A stretch of DNA of 64,000 nucleotides. Origin: Eledone cirrhosa (taxonomy: Eukaryota). The notes beneath the pieces are model-generated. The model did not search any database. It had not been told where the DNA came from and was given only the letters and a program-made list of their open reading frames with translations. The stretch lies in NCBI GenBank assembly GCA_964016885.1, contig CAXHJY010000868.1:55227-119226 (forward strand), in the 5' to 3' direction. Both the position numbers and the translations under genes were made by a program. Shown one piece after another: positions 1,049-59,209 of this stretch (position 1 is the stretch's first letter; every line of letters begins with the position of its first letter).

Positions 1049-1309
1049 TAACATTTCAAATGGAAACTCCATCATCATGTGACATAGAAGAAAGAAGGAT
1101 GTGGTTAAATAAGGAGATTGTAAATCTTCTGAAGACATATCCAAAAGGTATAGAAAAATCTAATTTTTGGAATGTTGTGAACTACAATATAGATGGAGTT
1201 GAATCAAATGACAGTTATGGTGTGACAAATATGAACGAATTGTTTAAATATTATGAAAATCTTGAAGTTGTCTCAGAGAATAATATTTCATATGTGAAAT
1301 TAAAATCAG
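1049..1309 (+). CDS. NOV-like gene, exon A: LOTUS/OST-HTH-like domain repeat 1 (gene begins upstream of the window or at ATG 1060)
   Basis: Acceptor tttttcag|TA, donor TCAG|gtttgt; 261 nt, phase 1-1; peptide EIVNLLKTYPKGI..FW..SYGVTNMNELF..YVKLK fits the LOTUS pattern. Confidence 0.75.
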
Positions 1310-3017
1310 GTTTGTAAATATTTATTATTTTCTATGTTATTTTATAAGAAGAAAAGTTCCAACTATGTGGCTAAAAAAACCCAGCAATGCCATTGATCGT
1401 TAATTTCATTTTTTATAAGAGGAATTTGTAGTTTCCTTGAAACATTTTGTATGGTATATAGAATTTGAAGTTTCAAACCTACATCAATGCGAAATAGATG
1501 GATAAAGAGGTTCCATGCAACCAGATGTTATGTATTTTACCTGAATTTATTTATATGTCCTAATACTTCGAGATTAAAATCTCATCTTCTGAGAAAAATA
1601 AAAGGGACTAATCCAGTGTTTGATGGAACAGGCTATACCTATGTATTAAATATTTCTAATTTTGGTTAAAACAGAAATTTGCAGAAAAGGGTAAAGTTGA
1701 CTATATGATCCTCAATATTTTACTGGTACTTTATTTTATTGACCCCTCAATGATGAAAGACAAAGTTGACCTTGGTGGGATTTGAACTCTGAACATAAAA
1801 TGTTGAAAGTAAATACCACAAAGTATTTATTCCAATGCGCTAATGACACTGCCAATGACCTGCCATGACAATTTCTGTAATAATTGTTTCTATTTTTGGT
1901 ACAAGCTGAGCAATTTAAAGGGAAAAAGAAAGTCAATTAAATTGACTCCATTGCATTACTGGTATTTTATATAATTCAAACTCTTAATGATGAAAAAGTT
2001 AAATTTACACTGGCAGAATTTAAAGTAAGAACATGAAAGTCTGTAACTACATACCACAAAGTACATTGTTAAATTCACTACCAATACTGCCAATCCACCA
2101 CCCTAGGGTCTCTAATAATAATAATAATTTTTATTTTGTAACAAGACCACCTATTTTAGTAAGAATTGTAGTTGATCAATTTCAATACTTCACTAATACT
2201 TATTTTATCAACCCTGAAATACTGAAAGATAAAATCAATCTGCACATATTTAAATACAGAATAAAAATAACATACAACTAAATACTCTACCAATTCTGCT
2301 TTTCCCCATCATATGATAATAATTATATCAATGATATCTTATTAATATAGCAAATGAGAGTTTTATAGGCGAATAATGAGAATCAAACAAACTATCTAGT
2401 CTATATAATTGTTTCTACTTTTGGCACAAGGCCAGCAATTATCCCAGTGTATTACTGGTACTTTATTTTATCGACCCCGTAAGGATGAAAGGCAAAGTTA
2501 ATCTCGGCGGGATTTGAATTCAGATCATAAAGGGCCGTAACACTTTGCTGCAAAGCATGGCGTCTGACCCTCTACCGATACTTCCGAATCCATAGTATAT
2601 AATTATAGTCTATATAATGTTGTCTAGTTCTTATTGCTGATTATGGCTGTAAAAGAATTAAACAAAAACTTCTGGACATGGAAGTGAAACCTAGGATGAA
2701 GAGGTCTTAAAGTAAACTTAAGAGAGACCAATATTTTAGTATGTAAAGAAGAAGGCAGGACCTTGCCATAATTGTGGAAATATCTGTTCTTGATATGTAG
2801 AATATAAGAAGGTAAAATAGTATCTATATACCACAGAGGATGTTATCCAATGGTCTACCAACACTACCACTCCACCCCCTTGGGTCTCCAATAGTAATAA
2901 TAGTGAAGAACAGATTGTATAATGTTCTATGGTAGCAAGACATGGGCCTTAAGTGACAAAGATTAACCATAGCTAGGTAGATATAAATTAATAGAAATAT
3001 TTTCTCATATTTTTCAG

Positions 3018-3278
3018 TAACATTTCAAATGGAAACTCCATCATCATGTGACATAGAAGAAAGAAGGATGTGGTTAAATCAGGAGATTGTAAATCTTTTG
3101 AAGACATATCCAAAAGGTATAGAAAAATCTATTTTTTGGGATGTTGTGAACCATAATATAGATGGAGTTGAACCAAATCACAGATATGGTGTTAAGAATC
3201 TAAAGGAATTGTTTGACATTTATGAAAATCTTGAAATTGTCTCAGAGAATAATTTTTCGTATGTGAAATTAAAACCAG
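3018..3278 (+). CDS. NOV-like gene, exon B: LOTUS-like repeat 2
   Basis: Same acceptor and donor (CCAG|gtttgt); 261 nt, phase 1-1; RYGVKNLKELF motif. Confidence 0.75.
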
Positions 3279-3544
3279 GTTTGTTAACATTTATTACTTT
3301 CCATGTTACTTTTATACGAAGAAAAGTTCCAACTATGTGGCTAAAAAAAACAGCAATGCCATTGATCGTTAATTTCATTTTTTATAAGAGGATTTTGGCC
3401 TACCAACACTGCCACTCCACCACCCTTGGGTCTCCAATAGTAATAATAGTAAAGAACAGATTGTATAATGTTCTATGGTAGCAAGACATGGGCCTTAATT
3501 TAGGTATATATAAATTAATAGAAATATTTTCTCATATTTTTCAG

Positions 3545-3802
3545 TAACATTTCAAATGGAGACTCCAGCATCACTGATAGAAGAGAAGAGAAAGTCATTA
3601 AATCAGCAGATTGTAAAACTCCTGAAGATATATCCAAAAGGTATAAAAAAACGCCTCTTTTGGAATACTGTTATGCAAAAAATAAAAGGAGTTGAATCAA
3701 ATGACAGTTATGGTGTGACAAATATGAACGAATTATTTAAATATTATGAAAATCTTAAAGTTGTCTCAGAGAATAATATTTCATATGTGAAATTAAAATC
3801 AG
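3545..3802 (+). CDS. NOV-like gene, exon C: LOTUS-like repeat 3
   Basis: Same acceptor and donor; 258 nt, phase 1-1. Confidence 0.75.
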
Positions 3803-4534
3803 GTTTGTAAATATTTATTACTTTCCATATGTTACTTTTATACGAAGAAAACTTCCAACTATGTGGCTAAAAAACAACAACAATACCATTGATTGTTAAT
3901 TTCACTTTTCTATATTTTATGTATTAAATATTTGTTATTTTCATAAAAGGACAGAAATATGGGGTAAGGGGTAAAGTTGACTATTTCATCCTCAATATTT
4001 TACTGCTACTTTATGTTATTGACCCCTCATTGACGAAAGACAAAGTTGACCTTGGTGGGATCTTAACTCTGAACATAAAAAGTTGAAAGTAAATACCACA
4101 AAGTATTTATTCCAATGCGCTAATGATACTGCCAATCACCTGCCATGACATTTTATGTAATAATAAAAATGATCTCTTTTGAAAAGGCACAATTGAATTC
4201 ACTACATAGTAGAATAAATGGTGAAGTTGTTGCTGTCAGGATTTGATAAGGAGGGGAAACAGACAACTGTATGACATTAATTAACTCAATTGCTTTTCCA
4301 TTTCTTCTAACTGTGGGCTATAATATTAATAACAATTTCTTACATTGATACTAGATCACCTATCATATGTGAAGTTAAAATCAAGTTTGTAAATATTTGC
4401 TACTTTCTATATGTTACTTTTGTGAGGATAAAAATCCCAACTGTGTGGGTAAGATTTTTGCTTTGCTCAATTTGTGCATTTAGTTGACATATTTTTTTCC
4501 TTTCATTGAACTGTATTTTTATTTTTATTTCCAG

Positions 4535-5883
4535 GTAATAAAACCAGAATGGTAAATAAACCCAGTTTTGAAGATCTTAAAAAGGTCATATGTGAAGTTC
4601 TTGATAAACACAGAAGTAAAATAAAACGTGAACATTTTTGGAATAAAGTGGCTGAGAGGCAAGGACATGTTATCAACCCTAAAGATTATGGTTTCAATAA
4701 TTTATATGAATTACTGAAACAACTTTCTGATGTGCTGATAGAGGTGGCTGAAAAGAATGAACTATATGTAAAAAAGAAAACTTCAAGTGATTCCAATAAA
4801 CCATCTGCTGAGAAAAGCTCATCCTACTTAGGAGACAACATATATAATTTTCCATCACTTAATGAAACTATACAAAGTGACCCATCAAAACCATCTCTAG
4901 TTGAAATTAGACAAAGATTCTGTGACATTGTTGTGAACTCACCCCAGGGTTTATCACTGCAGCTATTGATGGAATTCTATAATAGAAAATATCAAAAGTC
5001 ACCATTTAACTTTCAAGATTATAATGTCAGTAATTCTGAAGAATTTTTTAAGTTGCCTGAATTTCGATGTTTTAATGTTTTAATACAGAACAATACAATA
5101 ATGGTTTATTTAAAAGGACACAATTCTTCCCAAAATATGTTTCCGTTAGTTAATCAAATGCAAGCTCCTAAATGGGGTGAACCAGCATTCCCCCTCAGGC
5201 AACAACCTGTTCCTAATTTACAACATGTTACTGATAGTTTTCATCTTGCTCCTTTTTCCAAACTCCCTCCACCAAAAACAAATGAAAAAGAAATTGTAAT
5301 ACCTCCCTTAAATATTGCTCCTGGGGAGACACTGTCTAAAGAACAGCTTGATAAAATAGCCAAAGAATGTATTGAAATACTTGCTGATAATAAGGAATAT
5401 GTATCTGCTCAAGCTATTGAAAATCTTTTCCTTAAACGTCTTAGAAAGAGAAATATGCGTGAAGTTGGTATCCGTAATTTAGATTATTTGCCTTCAGTTC
5501 ATGAGCATAACCGTATGGCATCTAAAGTAAATGCTTATATTCAAGCCTTTGTGACAGTTCGGTCTGTATGCACACTGAAAGAACTAGAAGAATGTGTTAC
5601 ACTTTATGTGAACGAAAGCAATTCCTTTCAAAGTTTAAAACTGGGTCCTTTTCATAAGATGCAAATTATTTTTGATTTGTTTAAATTTCCTCCTGGTGAA
5701 GAAAGCTACCCAGACCTTACTACAATGGATATTTTAGATAATATAAGAAATTTCCTTAATGAGAATAATTGGTATAAGAAACACGAAATGCCAGAAGTTA
5801 TGTCTTATTTGACAAAAGCTTTTTATTACAATGATCCATTTCAACTTGGGATTCGCTTGAAAAGCCTCCCACTTGCTATTGGG
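4535..5883 (+). CDS. NOV-like gene, exon D: two further LOTUS-like domains plus the NO VEIN N-terminal conserved region
   Basis: ttccag|GT...GGG|gtaagg; INPKDYGFNNLYELL is a classic LOTUS motif; LDKIAKE..EYVSAQAIE..LPSV..SKVNAYIQAFVTVRSVCTLKELE..FQSLKLGP resembles the plant NO VEIN N-terminal region. Confidence 0.92.
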
Positions 5884-5990: not shown

Positions 5991-6444
5991 GTCTTAAAAC
6001 GTGCTCAAAAAGATGATTCAGCCCTTACCAGGAAAGTCTTTGATGATATGAAGTTCAAATTAACTGAAGAAATACAAAGCGCTTTCAATAAATTCCGTGG
6101 CTATATTCTTGCAACAAAACAAAATGAAACATATTTGAAGAAGCACTATGCTAAAATGTCAGCTGATGCTGCTCTAAAAGAGATATTTGAACGGCTGTGC
6201 TTGTTGCTTGAAAATTATGAACCTAGAACTATATTTGAACAGAAACAAAAAAGAAAATTTATAGAGATTTCTAATAATTTCTTTCAGCAAATAAGTAGTC
6301 ATGATCTAGCTAAGACTGTGTTTCATGTTGCTATTTGTGTCACTACTACTGAACTACAAGCAATTACCCTGGAATTCTTAAAGCCAAGATCTCAGCCCTC
6401 AACTGATCACTCTAACAAAGTTAAAATTCCTCCTCCTCGAAAAG
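5991..6444 (+). CDS. NOV-like gene, exon E
   Basis: ttacag|GTC...AAAG|gtaaga; open frame, phase 0-1. Confidence 0.9.
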
Positions 6445-7004
6445 GTAAGATTTTGAAATATGATTTTAATAGGGCAACTTCTAAATTTTTAACTATTGTT
6501 ATTGTTAGGTGCCTATAGCCCTGATTCAACTATATACTACTTCTATATATTAACTGTGGACTATTTTCCTACTAAAATTGAGAGGAGAGTTGGCTGTCTA
6601 GATAGAATACTAGACAACTAGGTAAGAGATTGTTTGCATCTTGGCATTGTGTCCACTACAAAAACTCTGATGTATTTCTGCTTGAAATTCTACAAACTCA
6701 CACAATAAAATGAGTTATCTTTTGCCTTGTGTCAAAGAAGCCTTTTAAAACATTTATTGATAAACATCTTGTGGATAAACATGTCCTAATGATTCAATTT
6801 TAACAATTTCTATGCAGTTTTTAGGAGATATAATAAATGCTGTAGAAATAATTTTGTTTGCTTCAGAATGTAATATATAATTTGTTTTATAAAACCTGTT
6901 CTTAAAATGTAACGGAAACAAAAAATAATATTGATGTAGAAAACCAGCAGTATGAAATATGAATGCATACAACAAACAAGAAATTAAATATTAAGGTAAA
7001 AATA

Positions 7005-7340
7005 AAAAACGGTGGCATGTACCCCATCACAGTAGGTAATGTCTTCTGGAGGCTTGCAACTAAGATCATCTGCAAGTCTATTGCACCAGAGATAGGTGTG
7101 GAACTCAGCCCAGTGCAGCTGGGGGTCGGTGTGGCCAGCAGGTGCGAGGGACCTGCCCACACTGCTAAACAGTTCATTCCAAACTCTCTTCCCAAGCCGG
7201 TGCCAATTGATCCTAGGATCTCATTGTCAAACTTGACATGAGAAATGCCTTCAATTGGTTGCGCCTTGCCTCAGCCGTGCCTTGTCTACCAACTCACTGG
7301 CCTACCTGCTATATGGGTCCCCAAGCATGCTCCTCACTGC
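7005..7340 (+). mobile_element. CRE-like non-LTR retrotransposon RT fragment
   Basis: GGMYPITVGNVFWRLATK..QLGVGVASRCEG; degraded. Confidence 0.7.
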
Positions 7341-7542
7341 ATACAACAATTACTCTTTAATTGGTATATCCAGTGTTTCATATAGCTCATTTAATATATA
7401 AATATTAGCTAGACAATGGTGTATTTACAAAACACAGTAGGTGTTGTAGGAAAGAAGTATATTTTTTTTAATGATTTGCCCTATCTCTATTCAATTTTAG
7501 AGTCCTGAAAGCCCAGTGATATTTATATTATGGCTTCAATCT

Positions 7543-9436
7543 CAGGATAAAGTGGGAAGCATTGGTGCATAAGGATGTCAGGACAAAATATGCAGATACT
7601 ATTGCATTCAAATTCATAGAACTCCCTGAGCAAACTGAGGACGTTGGGACAGAGTGGAGATTGTTCAGTACAGCAGTGTCTGCTTCAGCTGTTAAATGCT
7701 GCGGGTGAAAGAGGCTTGGTGTGATGTCGGATGGCAGGAAGACTCTTTGGTTCAATCAAGAAGTCAAAGATGCCACCCAAGAAAAGAAGAAGGCTTACAA
7801 AGCTTAACTTGGAAGTAAGTTAAGTTGGAATCTGACTTCAGATCAGCAAATAAAGTGTTCTAGCAGACCATCCACCAACTTCATATTAAGAAGCCCTCCT
7901 CCACACCTGCTATCAAGAACACGTCTGGGGTTCTCATCTCTTCAGATAGGTGCATCCTCGCGAGGTGGAGATAATACTTTGCTGATCTCCTAAACCTGAT
8001 CACAACAGCATCTTTGGATGTACACAAGGAGCATCTGGGAACATGACTAATCTCTCAGAGGCTGAGGTCACAAGAGCAGTTAAAGAGCTCAAATGTGGCA
8101 AAGCTGCTGGAGAAGATGAAATCTGGCCTGGGGTGTTAAAAGCCTTAACTAAAGAAGGTATTTTGTGTTTGACTCCTTTGTGCTAGGTGGCCTGGATCTC
8201 TGGAAAGACACCTAAGCAATTGGGAGTCTATGCAAAATGTCTTGCAAAGAGATTCAGGGAGATTGTCGAGTCCAAGCTAGCTGATAAACAGTGTGGTTTT
8301 CACTCAGGACAGCAGAGCCAACTAAATATTCACACTGCAGCAAGTATTCAACAAATTATTGGAGTATTGCCAAGAAGTATATTTTCTTTTGTCGACTTCG
8401 AGAAGGCATATGACCATGTTCCTCAGGACCTACTGTGGAAGGCTGTGCAGGAGTATGGGATTGATGGTCAGCTTCTTGCTGCCCTGATGTCTTTATATGA
8501 ATGACCAAGTACTAGTGTTTGGATAAATAGTGCTAAATCGAAACCATTCAATGTGGGAGTCAGACTCCACCAAGGGTGCATACTGTCACCTCTCCTGTTT
8601 ATTATTTACATGAACAGGATTGACATGCACAGCTGGGTTGGAAGTGGTATCACAACTGGCAGGTGTAAAATCAGTCAGCTGGAATTTGAAGATGACTTAA
8701 CTTGACAGATGATCTTCAACTTGCACTTGATAGGTTTGATGCCAAGTGCTGCTTGGTTGGAATGAAAATCAGGGCTGCGAGAACTGAGACTCCATGTTAA
8801 TGGAGTTCCACTGAAGCAGGTAGAGAAGATCAAGTATCTCAGGGCCATGTTCATGAGTGATGAAAGGCAGGAGGCTGAATTAAGTGCAAGAATCGCAAAA
8901 GCTGATGCCGTAATGCACCAGCTTCGGCATTCAGTAATCAGAAGAGCCAAACTCGCTATCTTCAATTCGGTTTTCATGTCAACTCTTACCTAGGATCATG
9001 AATCTTGGGTAATGACTGAAAAAATATGATCACAAATACAAACAGTTGAAATGAGATTCCTCTGAAGGGTCTTTGGAGTAACGTTACTTGATAAAGTACG
9101 TAGCTTGGAGATCAGAGTGTTGTTCCAGGTAGAGCCCTTACTTCTCCAAATTGACAGATAAGTTCTGATACTATGGCCATGTAGTTAGAATGTCTCAGGA
9201 AAGAATCACTGGGCAAAACCAAGCGGCAAGAGACCCAGGGGTAGACCCTGAGCAAGGTGGTTGGATAACATCCATGAGCTTGGCTGGTCTTGCTTGGGGA
9301 CCCAGCTGGATCAGTTGGAGATGGTTGCTTCTGACTGGACCCGCTGGAAGGAGTGTTTGAGGACTGTGTCCCCATGACCCTCTCAGGAATAAGTGGGTGA
9401 AGCAGAAGAAGAAGGTAGTGGTGGTGGTGGTGGTGG
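7543..9436 (+). mobile_element. Degraded 5'-truncated RTE-clade LINE (GAA-tail family)
   Basis: FVDFEKAYDHVP RT motif, stops and frameshifts, 3' gaagcagaagaagaag tail. Confidence 0.85.
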
Positions 9437-10249
9437 CTTCTTCAATCACAGTATTTATTTACACAAATGTTTTTCTCTTCCGTTTTTTATTGCTAGTGCT
9501 GTCATTAGAAATACTAATGGCTATTAGAAAACTTACACGCAGAAAAACATATATGGAAAACAAATGAACAAAAGCACTTATCCCCTACATCAGCCATTTC
9601 CTGAAAAGCAATTTCATGCATAAAGGTACAATTTCATGCATAAAGGTACTGTTTTGTTGTGTTGTGGAGAACCCAGGTTGTGCTACAAATTGAAAGACCA
9701 ACCTACTGGAAAGATAGATGCATGTAAGACAATACAAGATAGAAGCACAGAAAACTTATGCGTGTCTTTTGACTGGAAACAACTAAATAAACCAAATTCT
9801 TACAACTAAAATATGACAAGTAATAGACAGTGTAAATATATAGGATCTGAGCCATCAATTTATTTAGTATGACTTGTTCCATGTAAATATGATTCCATGC
9901 TAAAATGTATATGTGGTGTGGTAAATAAATATATACATATACATCAGGACTGAACACAATGGAACCAAACTCCCACTGTCACTGCTGCAATCTCTCCTGC
10001 TCTCCCCATCTCTTACCATTATAAGCAAATGTGGGCCCATGTGCTGGAAGCCTACAGTATCCAATCCATGCTTTATAACTTCATTGAGGGCAGCATGGCA
10101 TTGAAGGCGGCTGGCACTGTAGAAACACGACAGCAGGTGAAGACCGAAAGAGTCTATGGTGTATCCACAGCAACATTTTTGTGCCTCGCAGATCCGAAGG
10201 CTGAGCCTCAGGGAAACCCCAATTCACAGGCTATCATTATCCAGCTGCA

Positions 10250-11690
10250 CGCCAATCAAAAAGGAGGGTAAAGCATTGAGCCAGGCACCTGTGTGGGATT
10301 ACAAGGCTGGATAAAAATGTGAGGTGGTGCTGATTGAGCTGGCACACTAGCCTGTCTCAGGCTATGTCACACTGGATGGCATCCCATATACTCTGGGGGG
10401 ATTTGACATCTACAGGGAAAAAATGAGGAGGGACATCTACTGGACAAAATCCAAGCGAGTCCCAAGTCTCATAGGCAGCTTCGCATTCTTCGATCACATT
10501 GGGTTTTGTTGTGTTGTGGAGGACACTGAGGTTACCAACAAAAGAAATTCCAGCAAGACCAGAGACCAAGGCCACTGTTTCTAACAGGTAAGGTGGCCTG
10601 TTACCATCCAAAGTTGTCAAACCTGATGTTGCATATCTGCTGCTCGCGTACAAGTATCAAGATCAGTGAGGAGAGATGTGTGGCTGTAGCAAGGAGCGGT
10701 ATGAAGTGTGAGGAGCTTCGGCATGGCAAAGCACTTTCTTAACATGAAGAGGGCTAGATGGGCGTCAATCATACCCAGTCAGCTTGTGAGGGTTGTGAGC
10801 TGCTGGAACCTGGATATGATAGTGGAACGGATGGCTGGCAGGTGGATCGGTGAGGCAAAGATGAGGACATCCTCTTTCGGAGTCATCTGCACCTGGCAGA
10901 GAATGGATCGCATGTCCAAGACAGAGACTGCAAAGCCCTCAGCATCATGGTTGACATTCACCACCTCCAACTTGGATTAGTTGACCGTGAGGCTGATTCT
11001 CACCAGAGCAGAAACCACCAATGGCAGATTGTGACAGACAGTCTCCATGGGCCCACTCAGCATGACATCATCCAGGTACCAAACATTGAAAGAAGCCGTG
11101 ATGTTCCAAGCAATGGGGTCTGTTCCGAGAGCAAAGAGGAAGGGGCCCAAAGGATCACCCTATTGAACCCCAGTGACTGAAGGTAAGATGCCGGTTCCAG
11201 TGGGCAACTGTTGAAGAATTGCCTAGCTGCATGTGCAGCCTCCTCACACCCATTGGAAACACTGACCCATAGTTGCACCAGGCTAAGCTCTATGCCCAGT
11301 TCAGATGTGATGGACCTGCAGACCACCTTAGCAGTCAGCATCTGGAAGACATTGCCCACAGCAATAGGGTGTATGCTACCCTCTTTCTTCCTGATAGCAG
11401 TCAAGCTGGCCAAAAAGAAGAGGCCTCAGGTGTAAAGGATCCAGGGCGTCATAGATGAATCTGTTGATGAGTGCCACAATTGCACTCAAAAGGCGGCACC
11501 TGGCTTCAACTGATAGAGGGATAGCAAAACTTTGAGGTGATCAAGTCGGAGACCATCAGTACCTCTGCTGCTTCTGGCAGGGAAGGACTTAATGGCAGAC
11601 ATGATGTCTGCATCTGATGCCACAAATAGCAGGTGAGGATATGGGTCTGAGGTCTGCAGGCGGCTCAGGATGCTTGAGCCAAAGACAAGC
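10250..11690 (-). mobile_element. Degraded CRE-like retrotransposon (RT and RLE region)
   Basis: GTDGLRLDHLK, IHPIAVGNVFQMLTAK, GCEEAAHAAR, LDGNRP; frameshifted; boundaries approximate. Confidence 0.7.
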
Positions 11691-11884
11691 AATTTACTAT
11701 TGTAATTAGCCTCAGAACTACAAAATTGATAGGTATTGAGTATAACATTGAAAAGATGATTTGTCCTTCATAAACCCTATGAAGATAAAGTTAAGGGACA
11801 TGTCAGAAAAACTGGTTTTGTGCCTAATGAGAAATCATAATTTAGTGATTGGATCAAGTTTTTAGGAGGAATAAGAAAATCATA

Positions 11885-12237
11885 CAGTTATCCCCTGGTA
11901 TTTGCAGGGATTACATTCCTAGAGCACCTGTAAAGAGTGAAAAACCACGTATATTGGACGTGATCCATAAACATGCCTATAAACGTCAAAATATAATAAT
12001 AAAAAAAGAGGGAGCATCTTATGCAATGGGACGTCCAATAGGCTGGCAAATATGGTGTATTGTTATTAATAATTTAGGGTTAAAAAAATATATATTGCCT
12101 CAAAAAAAGGCATTAAAAAAATTGCGGAAGATATTTACGATTCCGTGAATATCCGGTGGTTTCCATGAACAATTATTAATTAAGTTCTAAGGGAAATTCC
12201 GCGAATAACCAGGACCATGAATGCCAGGGGTATACTG
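11885..12237. mobile_element. Tc1/mariner (pogo/Tigger-like) MITE
   Basis: TA-CAGTtatcccctgg ... ccaggggtatACTG-TA terminal inverted repeats. Confidence 0.7.
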
Positions 12238-12264
12238 TATATATATTCTACCTTTATTTTTCAG

Positions 12265-12446
12265 AACAAGTACTTCAATCTTTGAAAAAATATCTGGAAA
12301 AATACATGTCTTCAGGGACATTAAATTTGAATCATTTCAACAAAATTGAAGAGAAGTTACTGGAAGAATTTAACATGACAACCTTTTCCAATATGGGTTA
12401 TGGACGATTTCTTTCATTCCTCCAGAATAATATGTCGATAAAAAAA
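12265..12446 (+). CDS. NOV-like gene, exon F
   Basis: tttcag|AA...AAA|gtaagt; FSNMGYGRFLSFL resembles the NOV F..LGYG.F..FL motif; phase 1-0. Confidence 0.88.
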
Positions 12447-12712
12447 GTAAGTGGTTTCTTCAGTAGTAGTAATAGTGATAAGTTCTAGACATTTTGTTAG
12501 TACAACAAATTATGAAAAGAAAGTTTATCAAAATGTTCTTCTATATCAGAAAAATATGAGAAGATAATTAGCTAATAGGTTCTGTTAAATCATTAAAATA
12601 TGAAGGAGTTTAGTTGATATAAATAAACATTAGTTTTTGTTTTTGTTTTTATAGTCAGCCTTTTACATACACTATTCCTTTCTTGAGTTTATGGAACATT
12701 TCTTGTTTCTAG

Positions 12713-12847
12713 ATTTTGGATGAAGCTGGTCTTACAATCTCTGGAACATCTTCTGACAGTAACAAGAGTGGAATTGGTGTATATAAAGCTTCACTGGCAG
12801 ATGTTTGTAACTTTATAGTTCAGTGTAAAGATTCCTGCACAACACAA
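12713..12847 (+). CDS. NOV-like gene, exon G
   Basis: ttctag|ATT...CAA|gtaagt; 135 nt, phase 0-0. Confidence 0.8.
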
Positions 12848-12944
12848 GTAAGTTGTTTTAAAACATTTTCTTGCATTTATGTCAGAGAAAATATGAAGGA
12901 CTTGGTTAAGTTAATGTAGGTAGTTTTGTATTATCTTGTGAAGA

Positions 12945-46502: not shown

Positions 46503-46526
46503 GTTTGTTTTCATTTTTCTTTTAAC

Positions 46527-47456: not shown

Positions 47457-47567
47457 GTAAGTATTTCACAAATGTCTTGACCCTCATGGAATGAGGTAAA
47501 CATGTCATTTTATACTTATTAATGTTTACAGTTTAATGAGATGAAGTCGTAACAATTCTAGTGAATC

Positions 47568-47757
47568 AAGGGTTGGCGGAAAAGTTCATAGGCTGACCAA
47601 GATACTCTCATGGATTGTCCAAATTAGGTTTCTTTTTTAACGTAGTCCTTGGAAAGAAACAATGCAGCTGTTAATAAGTTGAAACTAATGCATACAAGAT
47701 TTCACAGCTTTAGCATCGATCCTTCATAGTCAGCCTATGAACTTTTCAGCCAACTTT
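47568..47757. mobile_element. Mariner-derived MITE (same TIR family as 15904; partial copy at ~56800-56945)
   Basis: aaaagttcataggctgac ... gtcagcctatgaactttt. Confidence 0.8.
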
Positions 47758-48147
47758 CATACCACATTGGGTCAGAGAGACAACATACAAAGACTTTTCA
47801 TGTATTATTTAACGCTATTCTAATGAATTACATCTCTCCAAGCTATAACTCAAGGAATTATTGCAACTCTGCACTAACTATGAATGAAGCAGTCATCAAT
47901 AATGCAGTGTTCCCACTGTTTCCAGTGGTGATTTAAATTTGATGATGATGGTATTTAGTTTACAATCACATAAAAATACACTTACTGTCAACTCTCAAGC
48001 AGTAGACCAATATTATATTATTGTTATAATTCCATAACAATAAACCTAAACTAGTATGTTTTAAATATCTGTTAAGTATTGTTACTACCTTTCTGTTTTA
48101 GTGGGCAGCTGTGCTGTAGTCATATTCCTTGGAGATTTAGTTAAGAA

Positions 48148-49003
48148 CTAGCCGAATTACCCGCGCCTTGCTGCGTTTCCCACATTTTTTTTGTAAGAAA
48201 ATGATGATTGATTTTAAATCAGTGATATAATTTATGGAGAAAAACTCTGCATTTCAATATTACTCAATGTAAAATGTAATGTATGAAAAATTGGAAAACA
48301 TTATTTTCTGTAATATATCAAATCAAAATTACATTGTGAATTGGCAGTATCGGTAGAGGGTCGGACATGCTTTCCAGCATAGTTATGTCCCTTTACGATC
48401 TGAGTTCAAATCCCGCCGAGGTAACTTTGCCTTTCATCCATACAGAAGTCGATAAAATAAAGTACCAGTAATGTGCTGGGTAATTGCTGGCCTTGTGCCA
48501 AAAGTAGAAACAATTTTTAAATCTTATTTTCTTATTTTGTTTCTTGTAAATAATTTTTTTCAAAATATCAAATCAAAACTTTTGTGAATAGGCATCATAT
48601 CTTGTCATTTACCTATGGTTTAAATTTCATATAAATCGAAGGGAAAAAATTTTCAGTGTGGGTTTGTGCCTCCGTGGAACCCTAATAGGGGGTTTAACCC
48701 CCATTAAGGTGTCTTAATATTATTGATGCAGACTGGAAATTATTATTGATGCAGACTGAAAATTATTATGGATGCAGACTGGCAATGGGGGTTTAACCCC
48801 CATTAGGGTGTCTTAATATATCGATGCAGACTGGAAATTATCAAATTTTTTAAACTTCAAAGTACATAAGAAATCAAATGGGCACGTGTCAAGTTTCATC
48901 AAGATTGGTTTGGTAGTTTTTGAGTTTTAGGTTCACAAACAAATCTACAAATACAAACAAGCACACACACAAACAGACAGAAACTGGCATTTATGTATAT
49001 AGA
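48148..49003 (-). mobile_element. Probable non-autonomous Helitron with a nested SINE (~48340-48512)
   Basis: A|TCtatatac 5' end, GC-rich imperfect hairpin and CTAG|T 3' end on -; internal short tandem repeats. Confidence 0.6.
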
Positions 49004-49276
49004 TAGGGGGGTTTAACCCCCATTAGGGTGTCTTAATATTATTGAAATTTGCTGAAATTTCATATAAATCGAAGGGAAAAAATTTTCAGCGGGGGTTTTG
49101 TGCCCCCGGGGCACCCTTTGATTAAAATGAAATATACTTATCCAAGTACCCTGGACAATGTAGTTTCAGAATATATATGGTTATGGGGTCTATCTCCAAA
49201 ACCATAGGAGTAGTTTGTGAACAAACAAACAAACAAACAAACAGACAGGAATACAACTTTATTTTTAGAAAGTATT

Positions 49277-51632
49277 CATCATCATTATCATCATTTTTAT
49301 GTCTGTTTTTCCATCCTTGCATAGGTTGGATGGGTCCTTTTCGGGACAGATTCTCTCCACTCACCACTTTCCTTCGTCATCTCCTCTGTGAGTCTCAGCC
49401 ATCTGAGATCAGCTGTCACCACCTCTGCCAAGGTTTTCCTTGGTCTACCTCTACAGCAGCTTGTCTCCACTGGGGTCTCCTGGCACCTTTTCACCCAGTA
49501 ACTATCATCCATACACATCACATGTCCATACTAACGCAGTCTTCTCTCTTGTACACCACTCCAGATTCCTCTTAAATGCATTTTCTTCCTCAGTTCATCC
49601 AAGCTCTGCCTTTCTCTCACATTTTCATATCACATCCAAGGAAGCATGGTTGCTTCATTTCTCTCCAGCCTATGCATGTCCTATGCAGCCACAGCCCATG
49701 TTTCACTACCATGCAGAATCGCACTTCATACAGGTGTCATACAGTCATCCTTTTGTATGTAGGGAGAAATCTTTTGTTGTCAACCGTGGGAGCAATACTC
49801 CAAACTTCTTCCATCCTATCCTTATTCTAGTTATTATGCTCTCAGAGCACCCTCCCCCACTGCTAATTATGTCACCTAGATAGAGGAAGTTATCAACCTC
49901 TTCTATGGATCTCTCCTGTGATTGGAAAAGGTTTATATCACTGATATTCTTCTCCTCAATTTCCCATGTGCATCTTTTACAAACAAATTCTTAGTCTACC
50001 TGTTATCCCACTACATCTCTTGTGCACCAAAACTTACATTCTGTACATTGTATGGAGTTTATGCTTACTCCTTTTCTACCAGAGCCACTTCCCCGAGGGA
50101 ATCAAGTTCCTATCTTCTTTCCTACTTACTAGCACTTAAATTTTGGCTAAGTTTACTCTTAGACCTTTTGATTCCAAATTCTGTTTCCATAGTCAGAGGT
50201 TATTCTCTAGTTCTTTTATAAATTCAGCTATAATGACAAGGACACCTGCATAGAGAAGTTCCCATGGACAGCCAGTTTTAAACTCCCCTGTTATGGCCTG
50301 GAAAACTATGATGAATAGCAGTGGGCCAAGAACCGAAACCTGATGTACCAGTATCTTGAATTTCTCACTAAACTTTCTACTCTCACTTTACTGACAGCTC
50401 CTCTGTACATATTTTTCACTATTCTCACAGGTCATTCTTCAATACCTAATTCCCTTAAGGACCACCAGATAATAGATCAAAGTACTCTGACAAAGGCCTT
50501 TTCTAGATCAACAAAAGCTAAATATAATTACTTATTCTTGGCTAGGAACTTTTCTTGTAGTTGTCTCACTAAAAAGGACATCTGTATTACCTGATTGACT
50601 ATGCAGGTTACTAGTTCAACTCATACTTCTCCCAATGTTTTTAGCATCCCAGCAACTATTTCTGATGGTCCTGCAGCTTTACCATTCTTCATCTCCTTGA
50701 TTGCTTCTTTGACCTTATAATTGTCAACTTCAATAGCTGGTCCTTCTTTTAAGTAAGTTGGAGATAGTCTCTCTTCCTCCTATATTCATCAGTCTCTCAT
50801 AGTAACATTTCTAGGCCTCTTTCTTTTTAGCATCAGTGGTGCTAACAATATCCTGATTAACACTGACACACTGCCTTGCAGTGTGGAACACTTCACATCT
50901 CTGATCCTCACATCTCAAGACATTGGCAAACTTTCTTTTTTCAGTCACTCTCCAAGCTGTGTATACTTGTCATCTAGCTTCTCTCTTAGCCACCAAATAC
51001 CAATCTCTGTTACCCCCGTTTTTCTAGTCTTTCCATGTTTATCTCTTGGCCTTAATGGCTCTATCCATTATGCTGTTCTACTCCCAGGTCACCCGCTGTC
51101 TGTCACATGCTTTGTTCAAGCTATGGGTCTCGTCAGTAGTTCGCAAGAAGTTGTCACACAGGAGTTTCCAGTTATCATCTATGTTAAAGGCATCTAGCTC
51201 ATCACCCTTCTCATCAAATACTTCCCATGGGGTATTTCTAAACCTATATATAACTAAAAGGTCCTTTAGTTTCCAAACCAATTACCTGCATATCTTGTTC
51301 TGGCTTGTGTTTAATTTGATGTCACTAATAACTAACTTGTGTTAGACAGCACATTCTTCCCCTTGAAAGGCTTTTGCATTTATTACAGTCCATTTATCTT
51401 GTCTTACAAGTAAGAAATCAATCAGGTGGCTGACTGGTTTTCTGAAATTCGTGTTGTAAAGGGTTTGTTCATTTGCATCACAGAATTCCTGAAGCCTCAC
51501 TCTCTCTTCATTTCTTGAACCATAACCATAACTACTGTGAACTCCACTGAATCCATCTTGGTATTGTCCAAAATGTCCATAGAAGTTGCCTGCGAGGATG
51601 AAGGCATCTCTTTCATCAATAGCTGAGTTCAT
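49277..51632 (-). mobile_element. Degraded RTE LINE related to the intact element
   Basis: AGNFYGHFG..GYGSRNEE (APE), RT remnants, GRPRKTL, GAT tail; many stops. Confidence 0.85.
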
Positions 51633-51989
51633 TTTTATATATTGCAGACATCTAATACCAACAACGCCAAAGATAGCAGAAGTTAGTTGTAGAAAGATAG
51701 TTTAGATATAAACTCTTATCTAATACATAACAACTGAGTGGAAATAATTATCAACTTTCTTGTTTTATATGAAATAAAAATTGATATTTTCTGTGATGGT
51801 TTTGGATTAATACAGACATAAGAAGATACTCACCAATAGCAAATTGGAAGTCTTCATCCATTATACTTATATCCTGTCCTAGAATAATTGAACATAATCA
51901 GAAATGTATAACTCAACAAAGTGACTAGAGTGATTTTTGTCTGAGAATCTAGTTTGAAAAATATAAGAAATATAAAGTTTGTATTTCAG

Positions 51990-52121
51990 GTTCAAGACAT
52001 AGAAACAGTGATGCAGCGGTATGATGAACCACATGATATTGTTGAAATAACTTACAATGGAAATGTTGACACTTGGTTTGTTGTAAAGAAACTGCTGGAT
52101 GTTACCAAAGTTTCTGCACAG
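51990..52121 (+). CDS. NOV-like gene, exon Q
   Basis: tttcag|GTT...CAG|gtatga; 132 nt, phase 0-0. Confidence 0.85.
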
Positions 52122-52507
52122 GTATGAAGGAATATCTTTTTGTTCCTATGTCTTCCTAGGGCTCCCTCTTCCACAGGTTCAATCCACTTTCAGTGTTCTA
52201 CATTTCTTTATACAACTGACATCCTCCAGAAACATGTCTATACCAGTGCAGTCTTCTCTCTGGCACACTATATCTGATTTCATTACTAATATATTTGTAT
52301 AAAGCTTGAATATAACAACAGTTATATTTTCCCCACTTCCCTAAATCTCTAAACTTTGCTATTTTTTTATATTTTTTTCTCCAGTTATAAAATATTGCTA
52401 CAAATGTTTAAATTTGAGGAAACCAGTCAACTATACATGAAATGAAAGTAAAGAAATTCTTTCTTTTTCTAATGTTTAAAATGTGTTTCTTATTTCTTTC
52501 TTTTCAG

Positions 52508-52588
52508 ATGAAATCTGATATTGGTGTGGAATCAACAGAGATTGCTTTAGCTTTTCCAATGAAGTTAAACAAGTCTTTCAACTCCCAG
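52508..52588 (+). CDS. NOV-like gene, exon R
   Basis: tttcag|ATG; ESTEIALAFP; CAG|gtctgt; 81 nt. Confidence 0.85.
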
Positions 52589-52638
52589 GTCTGTGTGCAC
52601 TTCTCTCTCTGTCTTTCAAAATGTTTGCACACGCACAT

Positions 52639-53005
52639 ATCATCATCATCATCATCATCATTGTTTAACGTCCATGTTCCACGCTTGCATGGGTTTGGAC
52701 GGGAGTTTTCCCACTTGAGGCAAGAGTGGTTGTCTTGCTCGCATAGGACTGTCTGGCGGGTTTTCTACAGCTGGATGCCCTTCCTAACACCAACCACATT
52801 TACAGTGTGAGGCTGGGAGGTTTTTACTGTGTTGCCTACACGGCCACATTACAGCGTGGACTGTGTGTTTTTTTGTTGTGACACCTACACGATCTCATTT
52901 GTTTCGGCCTGGATGTTGTGGCACCAACATAACTTTACATTGAAAGGGGTGGTGTGGATGGGGTGGGGGTGGTGGGACGGGGGTGTATTTTGTTAGAGAT
53001 GCCTA
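52639..53005 (-). mobile_element. 5'-truncated copy (3'UTR only) of the intact RTE family
   Basis: Near identity to 30014-30475, lacking that copy's internal duplication. Confidence 0.88.
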
Positions 53006-54229
53006 ATACATTAATAATCACTAAATGGGTATAAAACACAGCTTTGTAGCTATTTATAGGATTTGTCCAATATTTACATGAATATGTATGTAGATAAGTG
53101 TGTATATATGCATATGTAGATAAGTATTTAAATATGTATATATGCCCAGATACACACTCATACACATATATATCTTACTTGATGAAATAGATATGTCCTC
53201 TTATAAGTTGAAGGTTGTTACTTGAGGTATACTGTAAACACATTTATCTCTCAGTAACTCATTCCACCAAACTGTAAATGAGGATGTGTAACTTATAATT
53301 ACTCTAAATACTAAAGGCTATATAACTAGTAAAAGCTGTTTTGCGAAACATTACAACTGCAAAATAAGAGAACTGAATCATCAGTGTTTAATGTCTATTT
53401 TTCATGCTTTCATGTGTTAGGCAGGTTGCCATGTTATCAGGCCAAACAAGTCAGGTGACCATGTCTTGCTCATATGATCCAATTTTGGTTTGGTTTTCTA
53501 TAACAGAATGCCCTTCCTAATGCAAACATTACAGCATGTACTGGAAGCATTTATTGTGGCACCAGCTCAACTACCTTACAGGGTAGAATGGGTGTTGTTT
53601 TGTCATGGCACCAGCATGGCTACCTTTACAGGTTGGACTGGGTATGTTTTGTTGTGGTACCAGTAAATCCACATCAGAAAGTTAATTGAAAATATTAGAT
53701 AATATAATCTTTTAGAATGAAAATATTCACACCTAGGTTTTGTTTCCTTTTGATAAGAAATTTACACTTGTAGTTCATCTTAAAACTTCTAAAGTAATTG
53801 TTTACACATTAAATATGCTACAAACAAACAATTTATTTGTCAACTTACCTGGTAACTGTATGTTAAATCTTATTCTTTTGTTTGTGTCAACTGTCAGCAA
53901 TCTCTGCCCACACATCCTGTTTTAGTAGAAATCATGAGTTCTGTTTTTTTTGTATTAGCTTTGCTGAAATCTTATTCCCACCTCCCCCAGTTTCATACAG
54001 TTACGTCACTTTCAATACATTACTGTATGTTAGTGTTATCAACTTAAAAAATACAATGCCATCAACTTCACTTCAGATTACCCAAATTCTCTGTATCATC
54101 ATCACCTTCGTTTTATGTCCATCTTCCATGCTAGCATGGGTTAGATCTCTGTATAGCTTCAGATTTGTCTACCTCTTCAAATTTAACATATTCATTCAAT
54201 GTAATTCTCTTGAATTTTTCTATTTTCAG

Positions 54230-54302
54230 GTACTCCCAGAAAAGCAACCTGTGTTTGCTTTCTTGCCACTACGTTCTTATGGTCTGCGTTTCATCATTCA
54301 AG
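54230..54302 (+). CDS. NOV-like gene, exon S
   Basis: QPVFAFLPLRSYGLRFIIQG, a sacsin/NOV conserved motif; phase 0-1. Confidence 0.92.
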
Positions 54303-54992
54303 GTAGATATTTGTGATGTAGTTTATGCTACTAACATTCAGAAGATCTGTCTCATTTTATTTGTTCACATTAACTCATGTGTAATAACTGTTGACTTAAT
54401 TATCTGTAACTAAATTTATTACTAATGTTAGCTTTGCTTATTGCTGTGTGATGCATGGTTTAAATTGACCTCATCTATATTTAGCTTTTATACTGACCAC
54501 CAAACTATAGATGTGTGGTATCTTGTCAATATATATTTTCTTTCAAAGGAAAGTCAGAGGTTGATACAGTTCAAGACCAGTGTTATTGCAACTAATTTCT
54601 TCCAGTTGAGTGGAAAAATAACCAAGTGTCATGTAACATAATTGTCAAATGTACCAGAGTGCCTCATTGGGAATGTTACACCTCATGTTTCCTCATTTGT
54701 ATCTAATAAAATTTTGAAAAATCCTTGCTAAAAAAATAAATAATATGTTTCATATACATACTTATAAAATAGTATATCATCATCATCATCATCATCATCA
54801 CTGTTTAATGTCTATTTTTCATTCTTGCATGGGTTAGATGAATTGTCACATTATGAGGCTAGACAGCTAAAATGACTGCATCATGTTCATATTATCTGTT
54901 TTGGGCCTAGTTTTCAATAACTGGATGTCCCTGCTTATGCCAAGAATATTTCAATGTGGACTGGGAGCTTTTTCATGACACCAGCATATATA

Positions 54993-56492
54993 TCATCATC
55001 ATCACCGTTTAACGTCCATTTTCCATGCTTGCATGGGTTAGACGGGTTGTCCACATTATGAGAAAAGTCTGGCCAGTTGGCTGTGCCATACCTTGCTCAG
55101 CCAGAACTGTAAATTTGGCCGGGATTTTTACAGCTAGATGCCCTTTCTAACATCAATCGCATTTAACTATGTGAACTACTCACATTGGAACCATAGTTTT
55201 GGATCTGGGCAGTTGCACTATGGCCAGTTAACCGCACCAAGCTTTTCTCATAGTGAGCCCTGAGTGAAGATCTGGTCTGTTGGCCACGCCGTATCCTGCC
55301 CACATCAGAACCATAATTTGGGAGCTGGGTGATCCCATGATGAGGGAAGTTGGGCCTTACTCATAAAGGAGCCATGTTACTGGGTGGTCCTGCCATCAAC
55401 CACGTTTACAGTGTGGAGCTGAGTGGCACTGTTATGAGCAGGGTCCGGGGTTGAGTTGTTGACACAGGTCTTTTGACATATGTTGTAGTGCCAGAGGTCT
55501 CAGTCCTGAGTCATCTCCATTGAGAGGTTCAACTAAGTCAGGTCAGCCTTTATTGTTTCATCCCACTTCTTCCTGGGTCTTCCTCTTTTGGAGCATCCTA
55601 CAACCTCTAGGGCCCTGCACCTTTTTATACAACTGTCATCCTTCATGTGCATCATGTGACCATACCACTGCAGTCTTCTCTCTTGCACACAATATTTAAT
55701 CCCTTCTATACCCAGTCTCATTCTCAATTCATTTACACTTTTCTGTTCATACACACTATGGTTACATGTCAATCTGATCAAACAGGCTTTATTTCTTTTC
55801 AATCTCCATAGATCCTCAGCATGCACAGCCCATGTTTCACTTCCAGGTAACATTGCTGTTCACACACAGGCATGATACAGCTTGCCTTTTATCTTAAGTG
55901 AGAAACCTTTTGTAGCTAGCAACGGCAACAGCTCCCTGAACTTTTTCCATCCCATCCTAACTCTTGCAACTGTACTTTCTGTGCATCCACCTTCACTGCT
56001 GATCTGGCCACCCAGGTAGCAGAAGCTGTCAACTATTTCGATGGGGGTCCTCTGTACATTTAAAGGAGCTTGTTTCCTAAGGGTCTTTGCTTACTTTCCC
56101 TGTGCAACAGCCACATATGAAGACTGTGTTTTTTGATAGCCTGCCTATATTCCCACTACACATCCTGTGAACCCACAGTTTACATTTGGGACACCTGATT
56201 GAGTTTCTACCTACTCTTTTCCTTCATACCAAGCAGAGGCATTTCTCACAGGGGATCAGAGCCCTGATTTCTTTTCTACTCACTATGATTTTGGTCTTTA
56301 CCAAGTTGACTTTAAGGCCTTTTATTTCTAAGTTGTGCCTCCATGTCTGAACTTTCTTCTCTAATTCTGTCATAGAATCGGCTAACAGATTCAGGTCATC
56401 AGCATATAGGCGTTCCCATGGACAACGAGTCTTAAATTCTTGTTACAGCCTGAAGGTTAATAAGGAAGAGGAGGGGGCTAAAGACAGAATCC
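54993..56492 (-). mobile_element. Degraded 5'-truncated RTE LINE with PHD remnant
   Basis: YADD region, GSETW, RRLQWYGH, GRPRKKW, 3'UTR and tail. Confidence 0.85.
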
Positions 56493-56548
56493 TGTTGAAC
56501 CCATGCTACTTTCCTGTATTATGGTTTTAATTCTCTTCTCTTGTGTAG

Positions 56549-56661
56549 GTGATTTTGACTTGCCATCCAACAGAGAAGCTGTTGATTCTGACAGTTTGTG
56601 GAACCAGTGGCTCAATAGTGAGATACCTTCTCTCTTTTTAGAGGCTTTGGAAAAATTCAAG
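56549..56661 (+). CDS. NOV-like gene, exon T
   Basis: DFDLPSNREAVDSDSLWNQWL, a sacsin/NOV motif; AAG|gtaagg; phase 1-0. Confidence 0.92.
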
Positions 56662-56972: not shown

Positions 56973-56976
<4 letters not shown>

Positions 56977-58251: not shown

Positions 58252-58260
58252 GGGTGAGAC

Positions 58261-58597
58261 GAGAACTGATTCTGGCTTGATTTCTACAGCTGGATGCCCT
58301 TCCTAACACCAACCTCATTTACAGTGCAAAGTGGTCGTGGAGGTGCCACAGCAAAAAAGCACCCAGCCCACACTGTAACGTGGACGTGTAGGCGCCACGG
58401 AAAAAAAGCACCCAGCATTCACTGTAAATGAGGTTGGTGTTAGGAAGGGCATCCAGCTGTAGAAATCTAGCCAGAATCAATTCCCGTATGAGCAGGACAA
58501 GGTCAGCCGACCGGACACTGCCCACAACAAGACAACCCGTCTAACCCATGCTAGCGTGGAAGAACGGACGTAAAACGGTGGTGATGATGATGATGAT
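58261..58597 (+). mobile_element. RTE 3'UTR-related short element with an inverted 5' segment
   Basis: (GAT)n tail at ~58580-58597; 58267-58326 is the reverse complement of 58420-58479. Confidence 0.78.
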
Positions 58598-58667
58598 TCA
58601 CTCACACACACTCACACAATTATTATTATTAAAATGTTAACTATTTTGTTTTTTTATATGTTTTTAG

Positions 58668-58827
58668 ACTCATCCAAATTTCAGTTCACCTGTGATGGCA
58701 ATTGCTTCTTATTTACAATTTGTCCCTGAGGAGGATGAAGTTCTTGATTTCTTTAAACCAATTGCAACACACATTCTGAAAAAACTGAAAAGTAAACCAT
58801 GCATTCCCTGTCAACCATTAACAGAAG
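58668..58827 (+). CDS. NOV-like gene, exon U
   Basis: ttttag|ACT...GAAG|gtaagt; YLQFVPEEDEVLDFF; phase 0-1. Confidence 0.88.
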
Positions 58828-58969
58828 GTAAGTTGGGTGATGACATGCTTGAAATACCTGAAAATGTAGAATTACAGATAATAATGTTGGTGAAGAAAAT
58901 TACGTAGATAATATTATATATTTTTTATTTGACATTTTTGAATTTCATATTCATATATTGTGTTTTCAG

Positions 58970-59209
58970 GTGGCAGCATTCAGTGGAAGATTCCTTCCCA
59001 GACACTGCTTGGACAAGACTCACTGACCATGAAAGTTGCTCCGCCACAAAAACTTCAAAAACTTTTACACCTATATTATCTGCATGCAGATCTTGCTAGT
59101 GTTCTCAACACAAGTATTACTAACAGCTTAGGTATTGAGAAAATAAAAACAGTTCATTTGTTAAAGATTGGAGAAGGTTTAGCAAATGGCTTTAATAACA
59201 AGGAAACAG
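58970..59209 (+). CDS. NOV-like gene, exon V (last exon found; the gene continues beyond the window)
   Basis: tttcag|GT; WKIPSQTLL..YYLH..SLGI; probable GC donor ACAG|gcaagt. Confidence 0.82.

What the first reader, a model, noticed from the sequence alone, without database searches (positions are those of the whole stretch)
1049..59209. NO VEIN-like GHKL ATPase fused to an N-terminal array of at least five LOTUS/OST-HTH domains
Seen: 22 phase-consistent exons join five LOTUS-like units (three single-exon repeats, two in exon D) to the NOV N-terminal region and a sacsin-type ATPase (ELIQNADDN, GQKGIGFKSVF, FAFLPL, WNQWL). Known: animal LOTUS domains occur in Oskar, TDRD5, TDRD7 and MARF1, which act in germ granules, piRNA biology and transposon silencing through RNA or Vasa binding; NOV proteins usually end in a DUF3883 putative nuclease domain. 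Inference: this could be an uncharacterised RNA-recognising ATPase/nuclease with a role in RNA surveillance or genome defence. I do not know a described LOTUS-array NOV architecture, but cannot search to confirm novelty.
Basis: partly seen in the sequence, partly recalled or inferred. Interest (0 to 1): 0.85.

Follow-up and report, generated by a model that had tools for sequence, protein, structure and literature searches.

The report
Twelve-LOTUS Tiamat copy without nuclease
An octopod genome holds two copies of the gene for the recently described LOTUS-bearing Tiamat/NO VEIN protein, a likely antiviral enzyme; this copy has very recently multiplied one binding-domain exon to ten copies and has likely lost its DNA-cutting tail, while the other copy keeps one such exon and an intact cutter.

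Summary
In detail: 22 in-frame exons join LOTUS folds to a NO VEIN N-terminal region and a sacsin-type GHKL ATPase. The architecture is not new. Two October 2026 preprints describe LOTUS-Tiamat/NOV proteins in aquatic animals, molluscs included, and most animal homologues fetched carry OST-HTH.

The new part lies outside the window. The LOTUS exon stands in ten tandem copies (seven upstream, six identical, 1,968-bp unit), giving 12 LOTUS domains against at most 7 in 130 homologues. Depth in a DNA run supports the array; contigs of a probable RNA run fit exon-to-exon splicing within it.

A second, complete gene on contig C8 has three LOTUS domains and an intact nuclease. The likely continuation of the window's copy (contigs C259, C206) stays open through the folded core, stops at the linker, and its nuclease exon is broken. 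Best reading: an expressed, nuclease-less paralogue with an expanding, shuffled binding array beside an intact cutter (0.55); a decaying duplicate is the main rival (0.27). A Vasa/germline role is unlikely: the repeats lack room for the Vasa-binding helix. Earlier scan notes found Tiamat/NOV genes on other DNA, none with LOTUS.

The parts
1..3397 (+). Last part of a tandem array of 1,968-bp units (6.6 copies, 99% match), each carrying one LOTUS exon; the array begins about 9.6 kb before the window. Seven LOTUS exons (X, A', A1-A5) lie upstream at G000:C895:42309-54567
1049..1309 (+). Exon A (sixth of six identical copies), 261 nt, phase 1-1, one minimal LOTUS domain, net charge -4
3018..3278 (+). 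Exon B, LOTUS unit; 5' end like A, middle replaced from a more distant unit
3545..3802 (+). Exon C, LOTUS unit, 258 nt; 5' two-thirds divergent, 3' part like A; net charge +7
4535..5883 (+). Exon D: two more LOTUS domains and the start of the NOV N-terminal region
5991..40950 (+). Nine exons of the NOV N-terminal region: 5991-6444, 12265-12446, 12713-12847, 15394-15551, 20908-21107, 22384-22638, 23245-23336, 25120-25350, 40806-40950
41503..41976 (+). First ATPase exon with ELIQNADDN; matches PADLOC TmtA models (best E 5e-28)
46349..56661 (+). Six exons for the rest of the ATPase and its extension: 46349-46502, 47321-47456, 51990-52121, 52508-52588, 54230-54302, 56549-56661
58668..59209 (+). 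Last two exons in the window (58668-58827, 58970-59209, GC donor); start of the central core. The contig ends at window 64000; the next exon in phase is on contig C259

Best explanation
The window holds the 5' half of a second Tiamat/NO VEIN gene in an octopod, whose LOTUS exon has multiplied to ten copies and which likely encodes an expressed protein of about 3,290 residues with 12 LOTUS domains and an intact ATPase but no nuclease, predicted to act as a non-cutting, high-avidity binding partner beside the intact copy. Shown: the exon array, the open frame within each contig, intact ATPase motifs, a complete second gene with three LOTUS domains on C8, a stop at the start of the linker on C259, and a broken nuclease exon on C206. 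Inferred: that C895, C259 and C206 are one gene; that the array grew by unequal crossing-over, possible because the exon is phase 1-1 and its 11-nt leader is open in frame; that recombination between units shuffles part-domains; and that the middle of the gene was homogenised with the C8 copy. Inferred function: the array would capture its ligand (G-rich RNA or RNA-protein particles) by avidity in cytoplasmic granules, and the near-identical ATPase would let it pair with the C8 protein and act as its sensor or brake in antiviral or anti-transposon defence. I give that last step about 0.35 on its own.
For: Array: 10 exon copies on C895 and 1 on C8, 11 matches in the genome. The six A units differ by 0-10 substitutions per 1,968 bp, so they are recent and not all identical. 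In DNA run X1 the exon A contig has depth 98.4 against 16.4 for the nearest unique piece, about 6-fold. Expression: run X4 behaves as RNA (share of words 0.34, against 0.32-0.42 expected for exons only; a 1,220-nt contig stops matching at donor 12446). It holds pieces identical to window exons A and E. The lengths of its records 9 and 10 fit splices X to A' and A to A/B to the base. Open frame kept: 0 stops or frameshifts in about 6.9 kb where roughly 4 stops and 9 frameshifts are expected from intron divergence of 2.4%, whereas two stops and two frameshifting deletions lie at and beyond the linker. Paralogue, not allele: the flanks are not collinear, and the ubiquitin-hydrolase exon just downstream of the C8 gene and the ORF downstream of the C206 exon are each single-copy. 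LOTUS plus ATPase without nuclease is a named class, Type VIII-A.
Against: No read or contig links C895 to C259 or C206; the link rests on exon order, matching phase and exactly two copies of each of three regions tested. No junction B-C, C-D or D-E was displayed, and X4's type is not on record. Amino-acid change runs faster in this copy: 51 against 20 polarised changes, p=0.0003, with 24 ambiguous ones left out. Pairwise dN/dS of the body is 0.72, not significantly below 1 (p=0.07-0.15), which fits relaxed selection. No pair of array exons shows a clear excess of non-synonymous change (dN/dS 0.45-1.75 on small counts). The six newest units are acidic (net -4, pI 4.7) where the O. vulgaris domain is basic (+3), which argues against direct RNA binding by them. 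Intron indel rates probably overstate the neutral rate in exons; on stops alone P(0) is about 0.02.
Confidence: 0.55

Rival explanations
1. The copy is a decaying duplicate. It lost its nuclease, is drifting at a near-neutral rate, and the LOTUS exon was multiplied as a passenger in a region where satellites and transposons also pile up. It is still transcribed but does no selected job.
For: Body dN/dS 0.72, not distinguishable from 1. If synonymous changes are split evenly and the 51:20 polarity is applied, the window lineage comes out near 1 (my arithmetic). Its introns total 79 kb against 25 kb on C8, with satellite expansions. Six exon copies are identical, so they add no new specificity.
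Against: No lesion in about 6.9 kb of coding body and none in ten array exons, whose splice sites are all intact although they differ by dS up to 0.38. Lesions start where the folded core ends. dN/dS among the older array exons is 0.5-0.8.
Confidence: 0.27
2. The three unplaced contigs are not one separate gene. C895 is either a divergent allele of the C8 locus, or it continues into an intact nuclease end that the assembly lacks, so the window's protein would be a full 12-LOTUS ATPase-nuclease.
For: Body exons and introns are only about 2% apart from C8. The contigs are unplaced and C895 ends in a simple repeat. Four linker exons were not found in a second copy, so sequence may be missing. X1 depths cannot tell 1:1 from 2:1.
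Against: The flanks are unrelated and the neighbouring ORFs are single-copy. Only two nuclease exons exist in the assembly, one of them broken. The first C259 exon is in phase with the last C895 exon, and the two contigs do not overlap in exon content.
Confidence: 0.12
3. The LOTUS array recruits the helicase Vasa to germ granules, as in Oskar, TDRD5 and TDRD7, and the protein serves piRNA-type transposon silencing in the germ line.
For: [quoted passage not shown] Fish orthologues are expressed in testes among many tissues, and P-body localisation is predicted for part of the family (preprint passages).
Against: Vasa binding needs a C-terminal helix (Jeske 2017). Each unit ends at its last strand and the next domain's first helix follows within about ten residues. 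Outside NOV proteins the profile search recovered many MARF1-type arrays, which do not bind Vasa. Zebrafish expression is not germline-restricted.
Confidence: 0.06

Closest known systems
LOTUS-containing eukaryotic Tiamat / animal NO VEIN (zebrafish wu:fj29h11; bioRxiv 10.64898/2026.09.30.754977 and .755639)
   Same: N-terminal LOTUS domains, NOV N-terminal region, GHKL ATPase, central core. The C8 copy also has the NOV_C nuclease (E 4e-20). About 80-90% identity to the O. vulgaris protein outside the LOTUS part.
   Different: 12 LOTUS domains against 3 in O. vulgaris, O. sinensis, Argonauta and the C8 copy, 4 in Danio and at most 7 in 130 homologues; built by ongoing single-exon amplification; nuclease likely lost.
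Type VIII-A Tiamat-like proteins (LOTUS + ATPase, no PD-(D/E)xK nuclease; same preprint, section 21)
   Same: Same predicted domain content.
   Different: The preprint names the class in one sentence from protein annotations. Here the loss can be seen in the genome, with the dead nuclease exon still present and an intact sister gene alongside.
Bacillus cereus Tiamat (TmtA)
   Same: The ATPase exon matches PADLOC TmtA models; the catalytic glutamate motif ELIQNADD is kept. The bacterial protein is an ATPase and ssDNase.
   Different: The bacterial protein has no N-terminal extension; no animal member has been assayed in the papers read.
MARF1 (tandem minimal LOTUS array with NYN nuclease)
   Same: Tandem minimal LOTUS domains, eight in mammals (Ding 2020, passages). 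A MARF1-only profile scores all 8 tested units at E<=3.2e-7.
   Different: Different enzyme (NYN RNase, no ATPase); not an orthologue.

Membership tests
LOTUS/OST-HTH domain | Winged-helix fold of about 80 residues matching solved LOTUS domains | tested here: met
   Exon A model H-H-H-H-E-E, pLDDT 89.8; top four VIA-align hits are LOTUS, Z 11.2-8.5
LOTUS/OST-HTH domain | Pfam PF12872 above its cut-off | tested here: inconclusive
   Met for exon D (28 bits), not for A, B, C. Profiles from non-octopod domains score all 8 units at E<=9e-12 against >=0.038 for reversed controls, but their members were gathered with the window's repeats as seed
LOTUS/OST-HTH domain | Binding of G-rich / G-quadruplex RNA | not testable with these tools
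   A-type units are acidic, which counts against it
eLOTUS (Vasa-binding subclass) | C-terminal extension forming helix alpha5 | tested here: not met
   Exon units end on the last strand, with the next unit directly behind; definition from Jeske 2017. The two domains in exon D were not settled (model pLDDT 40)
Tiamat / NO VEIN | Hsp90-like GHKL ATPase with catalytic motifs | tested here: met
   TmtA E 5e-28; SACS weak on the single exon (22 bits, below its cut-off of 32.8); motifs intact
Tiamat / NO VEIN | Eukaryotic N-terminal region and central core | tested here: met
   Collinear with O. vulgaris NOV at about 80% identity in the window and on C259
Tiamat / NO VEIN | C-terminal PD-(D/E)xK (NOV_C) nuclease | tested here: not met
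   For the window-type copy, if C259 and C206 are its 3' end: stop before the linker, nuclease exon broken after profile position 48 of 91. Met for the C8 copy
Type VIII-A Tiamat-like | LOTUS + ATPase + core, nuclease absent | tested here: inconclusive
   Met on the joined model; the contig link is inferred
Tiamat / NO VEIN | ATPase activity and antiviral effect | not testable with these tools
   Shown only for B. cereus Tiamat and, by knock-down, for plant NOV

The most novel reading that the evidence does not exclude
An animal Tiamat has split into a sensor/effector pair: one paralogue keeps the nuclease, the other has dropped it and runs an accordion of LOTUS exons that expands and recombines into new charge and surface variants, like an immune receptor in an arms race. 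That would be the first evolutionary sign that animal NO VEIN proteins still fight viruses or mobile elements and that the LOTUS domains are their ligand sensors.
Probability: 0.2. Interest if true: 0.75.

Novelty: new variant of a known kind. Interest (0 to 1): 0.42.

Why it matters
Both 2026 preprints leave open whether animal Tiamat/NO VEIN proteins still act in defence and what their LOTUS domains do. This genome offers a natural pair whose bodies are about 98% identical at the DNA level and that differ at the two ends: 3 versus 12 LOTUS domains, nuclease present versus likely absent. Six distinct single-exon LOTUS variants (X, A', A, B, C and the C8 exon), with net charge from -4 to +7, can be compared for ligand binding, and copy number of the array can be typed across wild animals. 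If the copy is only decaying, the case is an ordinary duplicate with an exon amplification.

Tried and rejected
Assembly artefact for the array: rejected, since units carry private differences and run depth is about 6-fold; X1 may be the source sample, so it checks the assembly and is not a second animal. Alternative first exons (each copy has its own ATG): disfavoured by the record lengths that fit exon-to-exon splices, not excluded for B and C.

My own error: one search showed a one-base frameshift on C259. It came from a mis-set exon end; searches show equal exon lengths and an open frame up to the linker. The 'C259 exons' dN/dS row is invalid; the rows used stop before that place. Searches ended the last window exon at 59206, not 59209, one codon short.

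Sequence search of the PDB with the repeat profile gave only chance hits. Single-sequence folding of the two exon D domains failed (pLDDT 40). The first homologue search with exon D found one protein because of its length limits. No RNA holder was listed as such. X4 shows little cover over exons B, C and D in the laid output; the tool filters records, so no conclusion is drawn, and X4 contig depths were not used to rank exons or copies. DNA searches with C895 and C206 flanks returned only dispersed repeats and did not place the contigs. Linker exons were not found on the C259 tail or the C206 head. Positive selection among array exons was looked for and not shown. No complex prediction was run, because the ATPase is split over exons.
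Full report
Setting. The window is the last 64 kb of an unplaced 119-kb contig (G000:C895) of a 3.0-Gb genome. Its gene is about 80-90% identical, outside the LOTUS part, to the Octopus vulgaris NO VEIN-like protein P0055, so the animal is an octopod.

Observation. Exons A, B and C are phase 1-1 cassettes of 261, 261 and 258 nt. A junction search guided by P0055 gave 20 exons from C onward with AG acceptors and GT donors (GC at 59209) and 1,673 codons without a stop; with A and B this makes the 22 exons reported. The ATPase motifs are intact, and the first ATPase exon matches PADLOC TmtA at E 5e-28.

Are the repeats LOTUS? Pfam alone is weak: exon D passes, A-C do not. A profile of eight units found 64 proteins at E<=0.001 among 1.84 billion; of the 27 scanned, 20 match OST-HTH, several of them MARF1-type, and 4 have the sacsin ATPase. 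Profiles without octopod sequences, or from MARF1-like proteins only, score all 8 units far above reversed controls (members were gathered with the window's repeats as seed). The ESM Atlas puts exon A next to OST-HTH clusters at 0.90-0.92. The model of exon A (45-sequence alignment, pLDDT 89.8) matches the TDRD5, TDRD7, MARF1 and Tejas LOTUS domains as the top four of 48,161 chains. The units end on the last strand, so they are minimal LOTUS domains without the helix needed for Vasa (Jeske 2017, PMC5458760, passages).

What is known. Most of the 120 long homologues listed (of 313 found) carry OST-HTH, sacsin and NOV_C together, and 7 of 15 rescanned pass the OST-HTH cut-off. bioRxiv 10.64898/2026.09.30.754977 (abstract, passages, results parts 2-3, section 21 and the first part of the discussion read) identifies NOV as a Tiamat homologue, shows ATPase and ssDNase activity for the bacterial protein, and finds LOTUS in 316 of 918 eukaryotic members, molluscs included. 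It names a nuclease-less LOTUS class, Type VIII-A. bioRxiv .755639 (abstract and passages) links plant NOV to virus response and notes repeated LOTUS domains in fish. The architecture is therefore in print. The first preprint has no mention of octopus, cephalopod or positive selection in its main text. Four library searches showed nothing on LOTUS exon amplification in this gene.

The array. Upstream of the window lie seven more copies of the exon, ten in all: X, A', six identical A, B, C. The A units repeat every 1,968 bp and differ by 0-10 substitutions. All ten keep their splice sites and frame; joined to the rest they give 2,452 codons without a stop and 12 LOTUS domains. Among 130 database homologues over 2,300 residues with the ATPase motif (isoforms included), the counts are 0 to 5 and once 7; O. 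vulgaris, O. sinensis and Argonauta have 3 (the profile favours the window's repeats). The units are mosaics: C differs from A at 8 and 18 sites in the first two segments but at 1 and 1 in the last two, and B differs at 1, 5, 10 and 4. Net charge runs from -4 (A, B) to +7 (C).

A second gene. Exon D, a central exon and the nuclease exon each occur twice in the assembly. The C8 gene is complete, with one LOTUS exon and an intact NOV_C. The other set lies on C895, C259 and C206 in consecutive, non-overlapping blocks with matching phase. On C259 the frame stays open through the folded core and meets a stop at the start of the proline-rich linker, with a second stop soon after. The linker exons were not found twice. 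The C206 nuclease exon has a frameshifting deletion directly after the IEVK motif and another further on. Flanks and neighbouring ORFs differ between C8 and these contigs, which favours a paralogue. The ends of the gene are far more diverged between the copies (first exon dS 0.33-0.48; last core exons 10-15%) than the middle (dS 0.02-0.03, introns 2.4%). I read this as an older duplication whose middle was homogenised. A related species (run X5) shares the C8 letters at the exon sites listed and shows similar depth on the first exon and on exon D, which fits the single-exon state being ancestral.

Reads. In DNA run X1 the A contig has about six times the depth of the nearest unique piece. Run X4 is not labelled but behaves as RNA. 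Its record 9 (291 nt) matches A without differences from 1077 and has 58 letters left after the exon end. Its record 10 (363 nt) has the 23 mismatches and 2 gaps of exon X and also 58 letters left. Both end at position 1106 of the next exon, which is where 31-letter contigs must end if X splices to A' (whose last private base at the start is 1076) and A splices to A or B. This is arithmetic on contig lengths, not a displayed junction. Links from C to D and onward were not shown.

Selection. The window lineage carries 51 of 71 polarised amino-acid changes (p=0.0003; 24 ambiguous left out), and body dN/dS is 0.72, so constraint is relaxed or selection has shifted. Yet about 6.9 kb of coding body has no stop or frameshift where about 4 and 9 are expected at the intron rate, and the lesions begin where the folded core ends. 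That favours a maintained, nuclease-less protein, but not decisively.

Mechanism. Shown: array, open frames, ATPase motifs, intact sister gene, broken second nuclease exon. Inferred: one gene over three contigs; growth by unequal crossing-over; expression as one protein. Predicted: avidity binding by tandem minimal LOTUS domains (proposed for MARF1 in Ding 2020, PMC7498356, passages), and pairing with the C8 protein through ATPase regions that differ at 5 of 345 residues, as Tiamat ATPases are predicted to dimerise. Because the nuclease domains are also predicted to dimerise, a mixed dimer could as well be a brake as a sensor. The acidic A units may bind protein or act as spacers.

Verdict. 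Real and correctly described, but the headline architecture is published. The unreported part is a very recent ten-exon LOTUS accordion on a probably nuclease-less paralogue beside an intact gene. New variant of a known kind; interest 0.42.

Noticed in passing
window 33609-30508 (-): LINE-type retrotransposon reading frame of 1,034 residues (endonuclease and reverse transcriptase motifs by eye) inside intron 13; a 94.5% identical copy lies upstream of the C8 gene and none at the matching C8 intron.
   Followed up: no
window 28380-29999 and 34009-37567; 42467-45364: 54-bp and 40-bp satellites fill two introns; the 54-bp unit is open in frame for hundreds of codons by chance of its length. The 40-bp array is about 170 bp on C8 and 2.9 kb here. 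Introns of this copy total 79 kb against 25 kb on C8.
   Followed up: partly
window 4363-4452: Orphan fragment of a LOTUS exon's 3' end with a changed donor, closely matching the C8 exon end, just before exon D.
   Followed up: partly
window 5991-6444: Exon E differs from C8 at 39 sites, mostly in a patch near its 3' end, while neighbouring exons differ at 0-2%; likely a stretch that escaped homogenisation.
   Followed up: partly
L054 (G000:C206:11892-12524, -): Single-copy open frame of 211 residues without a Pfam match, facing the broken nuclease exon.
   Followed up: partly
protein P0123 (lungfish, 2,807 aa): About ten LOTUS domains plus DUF7515 and no sacsin or NOV_C match: another large LOTUS array of unknown function.
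   Followed up: no
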